Origin: Actinomycetota bacterium
GTDB lineage: Bacteria; Actinomycetota; Acidimicrobiia; Acidimicrobiales; JAMCPL01
Direction: 5' to 3'
Assembly: GCA_023379675.1 (NCBI GenBank)
Contig: JAMCPL010000010.1
Location: 51,021-115,020, forward strand
Length of the DNA: 64,000 nucleotides
A program made the translations under genes and the position numbers. This document shows, piece by piece, positions 3,207-61,702 of the stretch. The notes under the pieces were generated by a model, which had not been told where the DNA came from, did no database searches, and worked only from the letters and a program-made list of their open reading frames with translations. The stretch's first letter is position 1; every line of letters starts with the position of its first letter.

Positions 3207-4088
3207 ATGGAGTTGGTGCTGGCAATCGATATTGGCGCTTCCAAGATATCCTGCGGGCTTGTAGATGCTGCCGGGACGGTGCTTACCGTGAGGCGAGTGA
3301 AGACGCCGGTGGATCGTGATGCCGATGGGGTTTTCGATGCGTTGCGTGGTGCGGTACGCGGGACGCTGCAAGATGGGGTTGTAGCAGGCCACCCTCCACC
3401 GGTGGCTTGCGGGGTTGGAAGCGTAGGCCCCATGGAGAGTGGTGGCGTAACGGTGTCTCCACTGAATATCCCGTCGTGGAGGGCTTTCCCTTTGCTTGCC
3501 AAGGTCGAGGACCTGATCGGGCTGCCTACGGCGATTGACAATGATGCCAAGGCGCTTGCACTTGGTGAGGGGTGGGTAGGAGGAGCCAGGGGTGTGATGG
3601 ATTACTTGTCCATGGTCGTTTCGACCGGAGTAGGTGGAGGCATCGTGCTCGGTGGTAAGCTCCTAAATGGTCACGGCGGCAATGCCGGGCACATAGGTCA
3701 TGTGATCGTGGTACCAGACGGCCGCCGGTGTACGTGCGGTGCTTACGGGTGCCTGGAAGCCGAGGCATCCGGCACGGCCATTCAAGCCATTACGGGACGG
3801 CATCCGAGCGAGGCTTCCGCCGGTATGATAGAGCGTACCGGCATGCTCGTCGGTTTGGCCGTGGCATCGGTAGCCAACTTGTTGGATTTGCAACTTTGCA
3901 CGATTGCCGGCTCGGTGGCGCTTGGTTATGGCAGGCGATTCTTCGATGCGGCTAATAGGGAATTGGCTGTCCGATCCCGTATCTCTTACGCTGCAAAGGC
4001 ACGGATCGAGCCGTGCGGTCTCGGTGCTGAGGGTCCACTCGTGGGCGCCGGTGCTGTAGGCTGGCGAGGAATCGGAAGGTTGATGTGA
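3207..4088 (+). CDS. ROK family sugar kinase (glucokinase-like)
   Basis: LAIDIGASKISCGLV N-terminal ATPase motif and the ROK zinc signature GHIGH..CTCGAYGCLEAEASG. Confidence 0.85.
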   Translation: MELVLAIDIGASKISCGLVDAAGTVLTVRRVKTPVDRDADGVFDALRGAVRGTLQDGVVAGHPPPVACGVGSVGPMESGGVTVSPLNIPSWRAFPLLAKVEDLIGLPTAIDNDAKALALGEGWVGGARGVMDYLSMVVSTGVGGGIVLGGKLLNGHGGNAGHIGHVIVVPDGRRCTCGAYGCLEAEASGTAIQAITGRHPSEASAGMIERTGMLVGLAVASVANLLDLQLCTIAGSVALGYGRRFFDAANRELAVRSRISYAAKARIEPCGLGAEGPLVGAGAVGWRGIGRLM

Positions 4089-40266: not shown

Positions 40267-40845
40267 ATGATGCGGAAACACGTGACAATCGATAATCTTT
40301 CTGGTAAGGAGAGCATGGAGTCAGGAGGGAGGCCGGATCGCGGCCCAGGCATGCTCGAGACCGGTTCGGTCCTAGGCGGCGCTAGCGGTAGCGCTGCGAG
40401 TAGCGACACAGGCGGCGGCGGTGATGATCAGCCACCTGCCACAGAGACGGTAGGCCAGCCTGCCAAGGTCATGAGGATCGGGATGATGGTCAGGCAGTTG
40501 CTGGAAGAGGTACGCCAGGCACCGCTCGACGAAGCCAGCAGGGTGCGGATGAAGGAGATATATGAGACCTCTGTCGCTGAGCTGGCTGGAGCTCTGAGTC
40601 CCGAGCTCTCCGAGGAACTTGATCGCCTGTCCATACCTTTCGAGGGGACCGCACCCTCGGAGGCTGAGCTTCGGGTGGCTCAGGCTCAGCTTGTGGGGTG
40701 GCTGGAAGGGCTCTTTCATGGCATCCAGGCCACGCTGGTAGCCCAGCAGATGGCCGCCAGGGCTCAGCTGGAGGAGATGCGGAGCCGGGAGCTGCCCTCT
40801 GGCATGCAGGACACCGTTGCGCATAGACCGGGCACCTATCTCTGA
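40267..40845 (+). CDS. bpa: Bacterial proteasome activator Bpa/PafE-like (DUF2587)
   Basis: AKVMRIGMMVRQLLEEVR..LDEASR.R..EIYETS..EL...LSPEL..EL..L.....PSEAELR.AQAQLVGWLEGLFHGIQ with a C-terminal ..PGTYL* (compare the GQYL 20S-docking motif). The start is uncertain (ORF track 40186). Confidence 0.75.
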   Translation: MMRKHVTIDNLSGKESMESGGRPDRGPGMLETGSVLGGASGSAASSDTGGGGDDQPPATETVGQPAKVMRIGMMVRQLLEEVRQAPLDEASRVRMKEIYETSVAELAGALSPELSEELDRLSIPFEGTAPSEAELRVAQAQLVGWLEGLFHGIQATLVAQQMAARAQLEEMRSRELPSGMQDTVAHRPGTYL

Positions 40846-40896
40846 TCTTTCGCTATCTCTGATCTTTCGCTATCTCTGACCTTTCCCTATCTCGAG
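40837..40896 (+). repeat. 17-nt tandem repeat x3.5 (TATCTCTGATCTTTCGC) beginning inside the last bpa codons
   Basis: Units lie at 40837-40853, 40854-40870 and 40871-40887 (2 mismatches), with a partial unit at 40888-40896. The first unit contains TAT CTC TGA, which encodes Y-L-stop of bpa. Confidence 0.9.
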
Positions 40897-40938: not shown

Positions 40939-41047
40939 ACACGATCTGTTTTGTAGCTTCAAGAGCCATTGCGCCGGTGAAATTGTTTGATGAGGTGGGT
41001 CGCATATACTACACGATCCGTTTTGTAGCTTCAAGAGCCATTGCGCC
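40939..41047. repeat. Repeat-spacer-repeat unit 1: 37-nt direct repeat x2 (1 mismatch) with a 35-nt spacer
   Basis: ACACGATC[T/C]GTTTTGTAGCTTCAAGAGCCATTGCGCC occurs at 40939-40975 and 41011-41047. The spacer is GGTGAAATTGTTTGATGAGGTGGGTCGCATATACT. Confidence 0.9.
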
Positions 41048-55490: not shown

Positions 55491-56579
55491 ATGTTCGGAG
55501 TACCCAGTACGGGAAATGTCACAAGTATGGTGGATTTGGAGGCGCTACTTGGTGCGGATGCCGAGGACCTGCTGAGCCATACCTGCAAGGGTATTCCTAA
55601 AGAGATGCTGGAGTTGCCAGGGCCGGATTACCTGGACAGAGTGATGTCGGTCAGTGACCGTAACGCAACCGTCCTACGCAATCTGGGCACGCTCTATTCG
55701 CATGGCAACCTTGGAGGGACGGGATACTTGTCCATTCTCCCGGTGGATCAGGGCATCGAGCACTCAGCTGCAGCGAGCTTTTCAAAGAATCCCGCGTATT
55801 TCGATCCGTTCAAACTCTGCGAGCTGGCCGTGGAAGGGGGTTGCTCCGGTATCGCAACCACCCTAGGAGTGCTTGGCATGACTGCGAGGAAGTATGTCCA
55901 CAAGATACCATTTATAGTCAAGCTCAACCACAATGATCTGCTCGTCTACCCCAACCGGTACGATCAGATCATGTTCGCGTCGGTTCGTCAGGCCGCGGAT
56001 CTGGGTGCGGTGGGTGTCGGTGCTACGATATACTTTGGGTCGGAGGAGTCCTCGCGGCAGCTACAGGAGGTGTCAAGTGCGTTTGCCGAGGCTCATAGGA
56101 TGGGAATGTTTACCGTGCTGTGGTGCTACCTACGTAACAACGCGTTCAAGACGCCGGACGCGGATTACCATGTCGCAGCCGATCTCACCGGGCAGGCCAA
56201 TCACATTGGTGTGACCTTGGAGGCAGATCTGATAAAACAGAAACAGCCTGAGCTGAACGGTGGCTATACGGCGTTGCACTTCGGCAAGACCGATCCTCTT
56301 GTATACGATACCCTTGCCACGGATCATCCCGTGGATCTTACCCGTTGGCAGGTGGTCAACTGCTATTCAGGTCGTATCGGGCTGATCAATTCCGGTGGTG
56401 AGTCAAAGGGGGACACTGATCTGGCACAGGCCGTGCGAACAGCTGTCATTAACAAGCGAGCCGGTGGGACCGGGCTCATTGTAGGGCGGAAATCCTTCCA
56501 GCGTCCCATGGATGAAGGAGTGAAGCTGCTCCACGCCATCCAGGGTGTCTTTGCTGACTCCCGGATCACCATAGCCTGA
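55491..56579 (+). CDS. fbaB: Class I fructose-bisphosphate aldolase (FbaB/DhnA type)
   Basis: It is close to the E. coli FbaB pattern ([17 protein letters not shown]...[47 protein letters not shown]). The start is taken at the ATG at 55491, 8 nt after GGAGGA. Confidence 0.88.
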
Positions 56580-56595
56580 CGTACTTCGGTCTGCT

Positions 56596-56711
56596 GCGGC
56601 CATTATGCCGCAGCCCGGTGTCTTTACCAGCACGCGGGCACGCCGGTCGTGAGCGCTACAATGCGATGTAATTAGGCGGCCATTATGCCGCAGCCCGGTG
56701 TCTTTACCAGC
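56596..56711. repeat. Repeat-spacer-repeat unit 4: perfect 36-nt direct repeat x2 with a 44-nt spacer; each copy carries a hairpin
   Basis: GCGGCCATTATGCCGCAGCCCGGTGTCTTTACCAGC occurs at 56596-56631 and 56676-56711. GCGGC-CATTAT-GCCGC forms a stem-loop. The first copy starts 17 nt after the fbaB stop. Confidence 0.92.
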
Positions 56712-56919
56712 TATCGGATCACCATAGTGTAGCGCGTAGAAAGCGTTAAGAAACCAGCTATTCGCGCTAACAACGCGTTAAAAGGCTTCCATTCCGGTAG
56801 CTACACGTGTATAACGGTGCATATGGTACTGATTGACGGATGCAGGCTATGACCTGGCCCGAGATATTACGGATAGTTCATGAGCTGCGGCATGGCGGCC
56901 GCAGCGGATCTGGAGAGTC

Positions 56920-58707
56920 ATGACCTGGCAGGGAGTACTCCAGATATTTGTTCTTATGGGGATAGCGGCCATCCTCGCACGAGTGGTCGGTGGCTACATG
57001 TTCCTGGTGCTTGCCAGGGAAGGTGATGTCAGGTCGGCGAGATCTACGGGTGCTGCCGGGCCTGTAGCTCATACCCCTCTGCTCGATACATGGATCGGGA
57101 CGATAAAGTCTGTACTGGATCGAGTCATCGAACCTGTTGAGCAGGGGATATACCGGATATGCGGGATCAATCCAGATCAGGAGATGCGCTGGACCACGTA
57201 CGCATTTGCATTGCTTGCCGTGAACCTTGTCGGGTTTGCAGTGCTTTTCGTTCTCCTAGGCCTTCAGCAGTGGCTGCCGCTCAATCCTGCCCATATGCCG
57301 AAGATCCCATTCTGGGTAAGCCTGAATACGGCAATCAGTTTCACGACCAATACCAACTGGCAGGCTTACGCAGGGGAGGCGACACTCAGCTACCTGAGCC
57401 AGGCGTGGCTCGTGGTCCAGCAGTTCCTTTCCCCAGTGACCGGCATATGCCTCTTCCTGGCTGTTGCAAGGGGATTCTCCAGGCACAGCACCAAGACGCT
57501 CGGCAACTTCTGGCGCGATTTTGTAAGGACCCTGCTATGGATCGCTGTTCCGGGTGCGATTATCGGCACCATCGTGCTCATAGCCCTTGGTTCCCCGCAG
57601 AACCTGCACGCTTACACTCATGTCACCACCATCCAGGGAGTGCATCAGACTATTGCACAGGGCCCGGTCGCCTCAATGACATCAATCATGCAACTCGGCA
57701 ACAATGGCGGCGGATTTTTCAATATGAATGCCGGCCAACCCTTCGCCGGTCCCAATGTGGCATCGTTGCTTTTCCAGCTGATACTTGGTTTTGCAGTTCC
57801 ATCTGGATGCATATATCTGTTTGGCAGGATGGTGGCCGACGTTCGCCAGGCATGGGCAATCTTTGCGGCGATGGCGATACTTTTTGTTGCAGGCGCGTTG
57901 GTGGTATATGCATTCGAAGCGGCGGGAAATCCGATAATCAATGCGCTGCATCTTGCAGGCCATGGAAACTGGGTGGGGAAGGAGAGCAGGTTTGGCATAG
58001 GATCTAGTTCACTGTTCGAGAACTCCACCACAACCATATCGTGGGGATCTACAGCCGCGGCAAATGACTCACTCACGCCCTTGGCGGGCTTGGTGTTGCT
58101 TTTCAATATGAAAACGGGCGAGGTCATCTTCGGATCCTGGGGGGCAGGGATGATCGGGATGCTTGCCTATGCGGTGCTTGCCGTCTTTCTTGCAGGCCTC
58201 ATGGTGGGACGTACGCCGGAGTACCTTGGCAAGAAGATCGAGTCGTTCGAGGTGAAAATGTCCGTGCTTGCAATGGTGGTACCCAGCTTCGTCATACTCA
58301 TTCTGGCTGCTACATCGGTGGTGATAGGTCCTGGGTTGGCCGGCATCTATAATCCGGGTCCGCACGGCCTCTCGGAGGTGCTATACGCCTTCAGCTCGGG
58401 CGTGGGCAACAACGGTTCGGCTTTTGGTGGCCTCAACGCGGCATCCCCCTGGTATGCGGCAACGGTGGGTATAGCCATGTTGCTGGGGCGCTATGCCATG
58501 TATATACCGCTGGTTGCTCTCGGCGGCTCTCTGGCGGCCAAGCAGAGAATTCCTGCCGGTGCCGGCACCTTTCCTACCCATACTCCACTCTTTGTGGGGT
58601 TGCTCATCGGGACGGTGGTCATTGTAGGAGCTCTCGTGTTCTTTCCGGCCCTTGCGCTCGGACCCATAGCCGAACAGGTGGCCATGCATGCAGGGAGGCT
58701 GTTCTGA
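56920..58707 (+). CDS. kdpA: Potassium-transporting ATPase subunit KdpA
   Basis: [47 protein letters not shown] and [11 protein letters not shown] align with E. coli KdpA from memory. Confidence 0.95.
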
Positions 58708-61548: not shown

Positions 61549-61641
61549 ATGTACGTTGTCTATTACATACTTGCGATAGCGGCCATCGGTATGATCTTTT
61601 GGCTGTTTGTCGCTTATGCCAAGGGCATTGACAGGCTATGA
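61549..61641 (+). CDS. 30-aa hydrophobic micro-protein (KdpF-like paralogue)
   Basis: MYVVYYILAIAAIGMIFWLFVAYAKGIDRL. GAGGAA lies directly upstream. It starts 12 nt after the kdpC stop and ends ..GAC AGG CTA TGA, parallel to the next micro-ORF. Confidence 0.5.
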   Translation: MYVVYYILAIAAIGMIFWLFVAYAKGIDRL

Positions 61642-61702
61642 GCCAGGTCGGGCGCGTGATCGACATGTCCAGGGTTTCTGAGATCGTGAGGAGTGGTGGA
61701 CT

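What the first reader, a model, noticed from the sequence alone, without database searches (positions are those of the whole stretch)
56596..56711. Unit 4 (fbaB-kdpA intergenic): perfect 36-nt repeat x2 with a 44-nt spacer, each copy carrying a terminator-like hairpin
GCGGCCATTATGCCGCAGCCCGGTGTCTTTACCAGC occurs at 56596-56631 and 56676-56711, with a period of 80 nt.

Each copy contains GCGGC-CATTAT-GCCGC. In the first copy flanking bases extend the stem to 8 bp (GCTGCGGC/GCCGCAGC).

The unit could be a duplicated fbaB terminator. It also fits the same 36-nt duplication rule as the other three units, and palindromic targets are the sort of site a CRISPR integrase would favour.
Basis: partly seen in the sequence, partly recalled or inferred. 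Interest (0 to 1): 0.62.

Follow-up and report, generated by a model that had tools for sequence, protein, structure and literature searches.

The report
Spacer-like insert with 36-base target duplication
A 44-base piece of unrelated DNA was spliced in just behind the aldolase gene fbaB together with an exact 36-base copy of the landing site, on top of two older events of the same kind. It is one footprint of a recurrent process, resembling CRISPR spacer integration, that keeps adding roughly 72-80-base units to the chromosomes of these mine-waste actinobacteria.

Summary
The repeat is real: 36/36 identical copies lie at 56596-56631 and 56676-56711 around a unique 44-nt insert, with 0 matches in shuffles.

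It is not a duplicated terminator. Sister genomes (89-92% nucleotide identity) carry one copy of the 36-mer and lack exactly these 80 nt, so this is an insertion with a 36-bp target duplication.

The target was itself an older footprint. A 35-37-nt hairpin insert ("H") is flanked by a 36-38-nt duplication of the fbaB tail. That event is present in the sister lineage and absent from a more distant relative. A third, older H insert duplicates the kdpA start.

H is a dispersed family. About 45 exact-core copies occur in one sister genome. Each is flanked by a copy of local sequence, with a period of 70-73. The H copy here carries a few bases of another H locus's flank, so inserts look like captured windows of donor DNA rather than elements with fixed ends.

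The geometry matches off-target Cas1-Cas2 spacer integration by a 36-nt-repeat system. That is my best explanation, but the enzyme is inferred.

No donor for the 44-nt insert was found. One observation remains unexplained: in the sister genome, duplication length plus insert length is constant at 71.5 +/- 0.8.

The parts
55491..56579 (+). fbaB, a class I fructose-bisphosphate aldolase (DeoC/LacD family). Its native 3' end is kept intact by the left copy of the older duplication.
   Evidence: Pfam PF01791, E 3e-55. The exact protein is on record in several assemblies.
56544..56581 (+). Older event, left copy of the duplicated target (R1). It comprises the last 11 codons and stop of fbaB plus CG, 36-38 nt.
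   Evidence: (family D3). In sister genomes the two copies are identical, 38/38.
56582..56616 (+). Older insert S1, a 35-nt (37 if CG is counted) member of the dispersed hairpin family H. The 8-bp stem GCTGCGGC/GCCGCAGC lies at 56593-56614.
   Evidence: Absent in L089, present in L086-L088, L090 and L115. The core is found about 45 times in MAG TL1-4.bin29. Its 5' bases match the local flank of the H array downstream of atpI.
56596..56631 (+). Unit 4, left copy of the 36-nt target duplication (R2). It is made of the last 21 nt of S1 plus the first 15 nt of the older right-hand fbaB-tail copy.
56632..56675 (+). Unit 4 insert S2, 44 nt of unique sequence with no donor found.
   Evidence: Absent from all sister-lineage loci. 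No match in the window, the fetched loci, viral, metagenome, phage or plasmid collections, or a second read context.
56676..56711 (+). Unit 4, right copy of the 36-nt target duplication (R2). It carries only the 5-bp stem version of the hairpin.
56697..56734 (+). Older event, right (displaced) copy of the fbaB tail (R1'). It is in frame, ends in a TAG stop as in the outgroup L089, and differs from R1 at 7 of 36 positions.
56849..56884 (+). Oldest event, left and diverged copy of the kdpA start (ATGACCTGGC...; 22/36 identical to 56920-56955). It opens a 24-codon upstream ORF that overlaps the kdpA ATG.
   Evidence: family D4. In L115 the same structure has a period of 71. It is not present in L089.
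56885..56919 (-). Oldest insert, a family H hairpin in reverse orientation (hairpin GCTGCGGCATGGCGGCCGCAGC at 56884-56905).
   Evidence: In sister genomes this site is a reverse-complement match to the H core: 23/24 for the window's S1, and an exact-core hit on the minus strand in L115.
56920..58707 (+). kdpA. Its first 12 codons form the right copy of the oldest duplication.
   Evidence: Pfam PF03814, E 7e-204.

Best explanation
Unit 4 is the scar of a recent DNA insertion. A 44-bp fragment of unrelated DNA was joined into staggered nicks 36 bp apart just downstream of fbaB. Gap filling then duplicated the 36-bp target.

The target was itself the product of an earlier event of the same kind: a 35-37-nt hairpin fragment H plus a 36-38-bp copy of the fbaB tail. 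A still older H insertion duplicated the kdpA start. The locus therefore grew stepwise, by +73 nt and then +80 nt behind fbaB, plus about 71 nt in front of kdpA.

The inserts are short captured windows of donor DNA. The H copy here carries bases from the flank of another H locus. Any sequence can be inserted, and the hairpin H is simply the commonest donor in the sister genome.

The enzyme I think most likely is a Cas1-Cas2-type spacer integrase from a CRISPR system with about 36-nt repeats, acting outside its array (off-target, 'neo-CRISPR' integration).

Shown: the polarity of the change (insertion), the exact target duplication, the recurrence of such events, and the dispersed donors.
Inferred: the staggered-nick chemistry and the identity of the enzyme.
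For: 1. Empty sites in a graded series (alignment):
   - L089 (fbaB 92% amino-acid identity) has no insert.
   - Five sister-lineage loci from independent assemblies (L086, L087, L088, L090, L115) have only the older event.
   - The window, L081, L082 and L083 have that event plus exactly 80 nt more.
2. Units 2 and 3 are also absent from the sister lineage. That lineage has its own H insertion (+73 nt) that the window lacks. The process therefore ran in both lineages after they split.
3. In the 64-kb window, the only direct repeats with a period of 40-120 nt are four units. Their duplications are 37, 37, 36 and 36 nt and their inserts 35, 35, 40 and 44 nt. Shuffles give none.
4. The sister genome TL1-4.bin29 holds about 45 H copies (47 pattern matches, 44 distinct contexts) and 6 non-H inserts. 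All are flanked by copies of local sequence, with periods of 69-73.
5. S1 shares the atpI-array locus's own flank bases, TTCTTC, ahead of H. The same donor context is visible in the window strain's metagenomes. This indicates capture of a window of donor DNA rather than an element with fixed ends.
6. A roughly 36-bp duplication plus a 35-44-bp insert of arbitrary sequence is the repeat and spacer geometry of actinobacterial arrays. For example, M. tuberculosis has 36-bp repeats and 35-43-bp spacers (PMC5056196). Off-target Cas1-Cas2 integration that duplicates a repeat-length target is documented (Nivala et al. 2018, as cited in PMC6698737; in vitro off-target sites are shown in PMC6698737 itself).
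Against: - No cas gene or CRISPR array was seen. I examined the window (about 35 ORFs by Pfam), the neighbourhood of the H array, and about 285 kb of the sister genome scanned for arrays.
- In the sister genome the duplication length is not fixed. It ranges 27-41 nt and trades off against insert length, so the sum is 71.5 +/- 0.8 (r = -0.98). The standard Cas1-Cas2 ruler model does not predict this.
- One hairpin is vastly over-represented among the inserts.
- I found no shared target motif by inspection of a handful of sites, and I did no formal motif analysis. I found no donor or PAM for S2.
- The second event did not reuse the register of the first, as array growth would.
Confidence: 0.55

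Rival explanations
1. A Cas-independent, still unknown insertion machinery mobilises the small hairpin element H and makes long (about 30-40 bp) target duplications, comparable to MIRU or archaeal MJRE-type mini-elements. Unit 4 and the other non-hairpin inserts would be occasional mis-loaded substrates.
For: H dominates the inserts in TL1-4.bin29, with about 45 copies against 6 non-H in the same loci. H forms tandem arrays at gene ends, as MIRUs do. No cas genes were seen in any stretch examined. The constant sum of duplication and insert is not a known Cas1-Cas2 property. Earlier notes of this scan describe similar hairpin inserts in other lineages; these are leads only.
Against: H copies have no fixed ends. 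The conserved block is about 31 nt, and each insert is a differently placed window that can include another locus's flank. All four young events in the window lineage are non-H, mutually unrelated sequences. No transposase class is known to give 36-bp duplications.
Confidence: 0.25
2. A replication or repair template-switch adds a patch of fixed length, about 72 nt. The nascent strand copies a short stretch of another DNA molecule and then re-anneals upstream, recopying part of the local template.
For: In TL1-4.bin29 the total added length is constant at 71.5 +/- 0.8, while its split between local copy and foreign part varies. The hairpin H could stall forks and act as a frequent switch template.
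Against: Junctions show no microhomology requirement and have clean edges. The window-lineage events keep the duplication at 36-37 nt while the total varies over 72, 72, 76 and 80. No known polymerase pathway measures 72 nt.
Confidence: 0.12
3. The polarity is reversed. The repeat-insert-repeat form would be ancestral, and the sister lineage lost 80 nt by recombination between the two 36-nt repeats.
For: Two perfect 36-nt repeats can recombine and delete precisely. The two DR copies of the older event are identical in the sister lineage, which suggests recombination between such repeats does occur.
Against: The outgroup L089 and all sister-lineage assemblies lack S2. The repeats are 36/36 identical although the lineages differ by about 10% in neighbouring DNA, so the duplication is younger than the split.
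Confidence: 0.03
4. An ordinary tandem duplication of the fbaB terminator, or a functional two-repeat mini-CRISPR array.
For: Two hairpin-bearing repeats lie downstream of a gene. There is a sub-threshold Rfam hit of the hairpin to CRISPR-DR16, at 17.3 bits against a gathering score of 35, E = 0.46.
Against: The insert is unrelated to local sequence, and relatives show no homologous spacer. The scan finds no terminator. The repeat is a chimera of an older insert and the fbaB tail and occurs nowhere else. The Rfam hit is not reproduced on sister H copies. No leader or cas genes were seen.
Confidence: 0.03

Closest known systems
Off-target (non-canonical) Cas1-Cas2 spacer integration, 'neo-CRISPR' loci (Nivala, Shipman & Church 2018, Nat Microbiol 3:310, cited in PMC6698737 and PMC7054753; in vitro off-target sites of P. 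furiosus Cas1-Cas2, PMC6698737)
   Same: A spacer-sized piece of arbitrary DNA is inserted outside any array, with exact duplication of a repeat-length stretch of target. The result is a repeat-spacer-repeat unit, and empty sites are found in relatives.
   Different: Here there are dozens of natural events per genome, stacked events within one intergenic region, and one hairpin fragment as the dominant insert. In the sister genome the duplication length is variable and the sum of duplication and insert is constant. No Cas1-Cas2 or native array has yet been shown in these genomes. I could not read the Nivala paper itself (not held), so details of it come from my own knowledge.
Actinobacterial CRISPR arrays with 36-bp repeats, e.g. 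the M. tuberculosis DR locus (36-bp repeats, 35-43-bp spacers; PMC5056196)
   Same: The numbers match: 36-37 nt duplicated and 35-44 nt inserted.
   Different: The duplicated sequence here is local and differs at every site. There are only two copies, and no leader or cas neighbourhood.
MIRU, mycobacterial interspersed repetitive units (40-100-bp units at 41 mainly intergenic sites; PMC5056196, citing Supply et al. 1997)
   Same: Small units at gene boundaries in Actinomycetota. Tandem copy-number arrays occur (the H arrays of 2 to at least 4 units, period 72-73). The units overlap stop or start codons of the flanking genes (fbaB tail, kdpA start).
   Different: No long target duplication or insertion mechanism is described for MIRUs. 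The insert of unit 4 is not a member of any repeat family.
REP/BIME and MITE-type small palindromic repeats (PMC2817692, PMC3184786)
   Same: H is a GC-rich stem-loop dispersed in about 45 copies.
   Different: REPs are mobilised by RAYT transposases without long target duplications. MITEs have terminal inverted repeats and 2-10-bp duplications. H copies have neither fixed ends nor TIRs, and each comes with a copy of about 36 nt of its target.

Membership tests
Canonical CRISPR array | The same repeat sequence occurs three or more times or in other arrays, with unique spacers | tested here: not met
   There are only two copies. The 36-mer occurs nowhere else in the window or in 185,579 species genomes. 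It is a chimera of an older insert and the fbaB tail.
Canonical CRISPR array | Adjacent cas genes and a leader | tested here: not met
   The neighbours are a MarR-family regulator, a TPR protein, fbaB and kdpABC. About 35 window ORFs by Pfam show no cas gene.
Canonical CRISPR array | Match to a curated CRISPR repeat family | tested here: not met
   Rfam gives only CRISPR-DR16 at 17.3 bits against a gathering score of 35. The hit is not reproduced on sister copies.
Off-target Cas1-Cas2 integration product (neo-CRISPR unit) | Exact direct duplication of the target flanking a spacer-sized, unrelated insert | tested here: met
   The repeats are 36/36 identical around a 44-nt insert with no local homology.
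Off-target Cas1-Cas2 integration product (neo-CRISPR unit) | An unoccupied site with a single target copy in relatives | tested here: met
   Alignment A2. The same holds for units 2 and 3.
Off-target Cas1-Cas2 integration product (neo-CRISPR unit) | Duplication length equals the repeat length of a native CRISPR-Cas system in the same genome | not testable with these tools
No array was found in the roughly 350 kb of this clade that I could read.
Off-target Cas1-Cas2 integration product (neo-CRISPR unit) | Constant duplication length across events (a ruler) | tested here: inconclusive
   In the window lineage the lengths are 36, 36, 36-38, 37 and 37. In the sister genome they range 27-41 with a constant sum of 71.5.
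Off-target Cas1-Cas2 integration product (neo-CRISPR unit) | Target sites resemble the leader-repeat junction or repeat motifs | tested here: inconclusive
   The native repeat is unknown. I saw no common motif by inspection of the duplications. Targets are not structured (mean z = 0).
Intrinsic terminator (duplicated) | A GC-rich stem followed by a T-run, with homologous duplicated copies in relatives | tested here: not met
   The scan finds no terminator-like site. Relatives have one hairpin and no homologous spacer.
REP / MITE / MIRU-type dispersed repeat | The inserted sequence is a member of a multi-copy family | tested here: not met
   This applies to the unit 4 insert S2, which has no second copy anywhere searched. 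The feature is met only for the older insert S1, family H, with about 45 copies.
REP / MITE / MIRU-type dispersed repeat | Fixed element ends or TIRs and a short (2-10 bp) target duplication | tested here: not met
   H inserts are variably placed windows around a conserved block of about 31 nt. The duplications are 27-41 nt.

The most novel reading that the evidence does not exclude
These Acidimicrobiia-like actinobacteria harbour a DNA-insertion process that has not been described. It adds quanta of about 72 bp, each made of a copy of the target plus a captured window of donor DNA. Its ruler measures the sum rather than the parts, and it may be Cas-independent. The process would amplify a hairpin into a MIRU-like repeat family, duplicate gene ends and starts without breaking the genes, and could be the unexplained origin of MIRU-type repeats in Actinomycetota.
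Probability: 0.3. Interest if true: 0.9.

Novelty: new variant of a known kind. Interest (0 to 1): 0.7.

Why it matters
Natural off-target spacer integration has so far been reported as a handful of putative cases. In this clade the events are frequent, datable and still polymorphic between co-occurring strains, and this one intergenic region shows them stacked in a time-ordered series.

If the enzyme is Cas1-Cas2:
- CRISPR adaptation would be shown to be a significant mutagen and a source of new repeats, upstream ORFs and hairpins at gene boundaries.
- It would offer a natural route to new arrays.

If the enzyme is not Cas1-Cas2, an unknown integrase with a 36/72-nt ruler awaits discovery. 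That would be of interest for DNA-recording tools.

Either way, the process offers a testable origin for MIRU-like minisatellites.

Tried and rejected
- **Donor of the 44-nt insert:** I found none in any of these searches.
  - BLAST against the window and all fetched loci.
  - An exact 24-mer in viral contigs and metagenome contigs. The metagenome collection evidently does not even hold the JGI contig that carries the unit.
  - Phage and plasmid collections, which gave only chance-level hits at E of about 2-9.
  - Read laying in 8 runs, which shows no second context for S2.
  - The run index, which finds only runs that hold the unit itself.
- **Terminator reading:** rejected. There is no T-run, and the fold of the whole stretch is no better than shuffles (z = -0.33).
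- **CRISPR repeat family:** only a sub-threshold, non-reproducible Rfam hit.
- **Hairpin array next to cas genes:** rejected. The array sits between atpI and atpB in a housekeeping block.
- **RNA evidence:** the only metatranscriptomes listed hold none of the words.
- **'Skips 153' joint in reads:** at first this looked like a fully empty site in a co-occurring strain. I rejected that reading. It is what a de Bruijn graph gives for the sister allele with two identical 36-nt copies, and the true alleles came from assembled contigs.
- **A 'GCC|' motif before both nick sites of units 1-3:** it was not seen at the four sister-genome sites I inspected, so I dropped it.
- **Literature:** the Nivala 2018 paper is not held, and searches for MJRE and for the origin of MIRUs gave nothing usable.

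Full report
**1. Observation**

The 36-mer GCGGCCATTATGCCGCAGCCCGGTGTCTTTACCAGC lies at 56596-56631 and again at 56676-56711. The copies are 36/36 identical and are separated by a unique 44-nt insert at 56632-56675.
- No match occurred in 100 shuffles.
- The bases just outside the copies differ, so the duplication is exactly 36 nt.
- The unit lies 17 nt after the fbaB stop (fbaB ends at 56579; Pfam DeoC family) and 209 nt before kdpA (starts at 56920).
- It is not an assembly artefact. It is in two NCBI MAGs and a JGI contig, and in Logan unitigs of runs from three studies.
- In run X3, for example, the flanks have depth 297 and 507, the repeat-insert-repeat unitig 499, and the 36-mer unitig 1000.
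- A scan of the 64-kb window for direct repeats with a period of 40-120 nt returns only four units and none in shuffles. They lie at 40939, 45697, 52388 and 56596, with duplications of 37, 37, 36 and 36 nt and inserts of 35, 35, 40 and 44 nt.

**2. A nested older event**

The last 11 codons and stop of fbaB (56544-56579) recur at 56697-56732. This second copy is 81% identical, in frame, and again ends in a stop (family D3).

If the 80 nt of unit 4 are removed, the two fbaB-tail copies are separated by 37 nt (56580-56616), which contain the 8-bp-stem hairpin. The unit 4 repeat is therefore a chimera of the last 21 nt of that older insert and the first 15 nt of the displaced fbaB tail.

**3. Relatives show the steps directly**

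I used the members of the 90%-identity cluster of fbaB to fetch their contigs and aligned the intergenic regions.
- L089 (GCA_054636795, fbaB 92% amino-acid identity) has one fbaB tail running straight into the conserved downstream sequence, with no insert.
- L086 and L087 (two ENA assemblies), L088 (GCA_023489365), L090 (JGI) and L115 (MAG TL1-4.bin29) have the older event only. The tail is duplicated perfectly (38/38 if the shared CG is counted) around a 35-nt hairpin insert, with a period of 73.
- The window, L081, L082 and L083 have that event plus exactly 80 nt more.
- The older insert differs at 4 of 37 positions between the two lineages. This is similar to the roughly 10% divergence of the neighbouring DNA, so the older event predates their split. 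The 36/36 identity of the unit 4 repeats shows that unit 4 is younger than the split.
- Units 2 and 3 are also missing from the sister lineage, as shown by BLAST blocks that overlap by one target copy.
- The sister lineage carries its own hairpin insertion (+73 nt) at the site corresponding to window 61627-61661, which the window lacks.
- Both alleles co-occur in runs X1 and X2. The sister type is at depth of about 18-21 and the window type at about 130-155.

**4. The hairpin is a dispersed family, H**

The core GCTGCGGCCAYTATGCCGCAGCCC occurs in only one of 185,579 species genomes. That genome is the sister MAG TL1-4.bin29, with 47 matches in 36 loci.
- Every copy is flanked by a direct copy of its own local sequence. 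The start-to-start period is 72 (23 cases), 71 (10), 73 (6), 70 (2) or 69 (1).
- Some loci are tandem arrays of two to at least four units (L094, L096, L112, L122, L124).
- The strongly conserved block is about 31 nt (TCY + core + GTG). Beyond it there are only subfamily-level similarities.
- One copy sits at the 3' end of a tRNA gene (L107).
- The sequence upstream of kdpA (56885-56919) is H in reverse orientation. It is flanked by a diverged duplication of the kdpA start (22/36 identical, first 10 nt identical, period 71). This is a third and oldest event in the same 340-nt intergenic region.

**5. Inserts are captured windows of donor DNA**

The H array in L124 lies after atpI in a housekeeping block. 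Its local target ends in ...ATTTCTTC, as shown by the last copy running on into unique sequence.

The older insert at fbaB begins TTCTTTGGTCC in the sister lineage and TACTTCGGTCT in the window. It therefore carries 6-7 nt of that other locus's own flank ahead of H. The same donor context (...CAGGTATTT + 34 nt of the insert + TGCACTGG...) is present at genome-like depth in the window strain's metagenomes.

Other pairs of H copies share their extensions in the same way: L106/L107 at 11/11, L121/L123 at 13/14, and L109/L117 at 14/17.

Six further inserts in the sister genome's loci are not hairpins and are unrelated to one another, yet have the same architecture. The process therefore inserts arbitrary DNA of about 31-45 nt. 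H is simply the commonest source in that genome.

**6. What the unit is not**

- It is not a terminator duplication. The scan finds no stem plus T-run, the fold is no better than shuffles, and relatives have no homologous spacer.
- It is not a CRISPR array. There are two copies only, the repeat is made of local sequence, no cas genes appear among about 35 ORFs of this housekeeping region, and there is only a sub-threshold, non-reproducible Rfam hit.
- Targets are not preferentially palindromic. The mean folding z-score is 0 over 24 duplicated targets. Unit 4 contains a hairpin because it hit an older H insert.

**7. Mechanism**

Steps that are shown:
- The change is an insertion (outgroup polarity).
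- The target duplication is exact.
- Events recur in both lineages.
- Inserts have arbitrary content and are copied from donor loci.

Steps that are inferred:
- Two nicks staggered by about 36 bp.
- Joining of a short duplex.
- Gap filling.

The only enzymes known to insert arbitrary short DNA with a duplication this long are Cas1-Cas2 integrases. Off-target integration that duplicates a repeat-length target has been described in vivo and in vitro (Nivala et al. 2018, cited in PMC6698737; PMC6698737 itself). The 36/35-44 geometry matches actinobacterial arrays such as the M. tuberculosis DR locus, with 36-bp repeats and 35-43-bp spacers (PMC5056196). A hairpin that provokes breaks or fork stalling could plausibly be a hot spot for prespacer supply; this is inference. 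I give the insertion-with-target-duplication reading about 0.95, and the Cas1-Cas2 assignment about 0.5.

**8. What does not fit**

In the sister genome the duplication ranges 27-41 nt and the insert 31-45 nt, with clean edges. Their sum is 71.5 +/- 0.8 (r = -0.98, n = 27). The window-lineage events instead keep the duplication at 36-37 nt and let the insert vary.

One possible reconciliation is untested. The stagger would be fixed at 36 nt and the distance between the two attacking 3' ends also fixed at 36 nt, with extra unpaired donor bases retained at the expense of one target copy.

Two alternatives follow. The ruler may belong to an unknown enzyme (rival 1), or to a repair pathway that adds a patch of fixed length (rival 2).

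It is also unexplained why the older duplication is 38/38 identical in the sister lineage but 7/36 diverged here. Gene conversion, or expansion and contraction of the repeats, are candidates.

**9. Limits**

The presence of cas genes or a native array in this genome is therefore untested.
- The donor of the 44-nt insert was not found.
- Earlier notes of this scan on units 1-3 and on the sister genome's fbaB event reach similar readings. I treated them as leads. I re-derived the empty sites for units 2-4 and for the older event independently.

Noticed in passing
window 56849-56955: A third, older insertion of the same hairpin family, in reverse orientation, duplicates the first 12 codons of kdpA. 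It creates a 24-codon upstream ORF ([24 protein letters not shown]) whose stop overlaps the kdpA ATG (ATGA). It could affect kdp translation.
   Followed up: partly
L091-L126 (MAG TL1-4.bin29): Constant-sum rule: target duplication (27-41 nt) plus insert (31-45 nt) equals 71.5 +/- 0.8, with r = -0.98. It holds for hairpin and non-hairpin inserts alike and is not predicted by any integrase model I know.
   Followed up: partly
L124 3680-4010 (minus strand): A tandem array of at least four hairpin units with a period of 73 lies directly after atpI, between atpI and atpB. It is the likely donor family of the insert behind fbaB. The array resembles a MIRU-VNTR locus.
   Followed up: partly
L107 about 3800-3900 (minus strand): A hairpin insert sits at the 3' end of a tRNA gene. 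The duplicated target begins GTTCGAATCCCTCCACCCCCA, which is the T-arm and acceptor end.
   Followed up: no
L127 16795-16889, site of window 62291: A 95-nt element with 22-bp terminal inverted repeats (CTAGTGGTCTGTCCCGCAAATA ... TATTTACGGGACAGATCACTAG) is present in the sister lineage and absent from the window. It looks like an ordinary MITE and is unrelated to the 36-nt-duplication events.
   Followed up: no
L127 1219-1380, site of window 46788: A 160-nt indel between the lineages, without flanking direct repeats.
   Followed up: no
L089 4180-4296: The more distant relative has a different long hairpin (CGAGCATGCCAG...CTGGCATGCTCG) upstream of kdpA, with GATGGTTG recurring 69 nt apart. This may be another hairpin family inserted by the same process.
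   Followed up: no
window 40840-40895: A 17-nt tandem repeat (CTCTGATCTTTCGCTAT, about 3 copies) lies just after the proteasome-activator (Bpa) gene and immediately upstream of unit 1.
   Followed up: no
L118 5870-6080; L103 5300-5560: A long (ACAATC)n microsatellite and a 28-nt tandem repeat, both interrupted by assembly gaps, in the sister genome.
   Followed up: no
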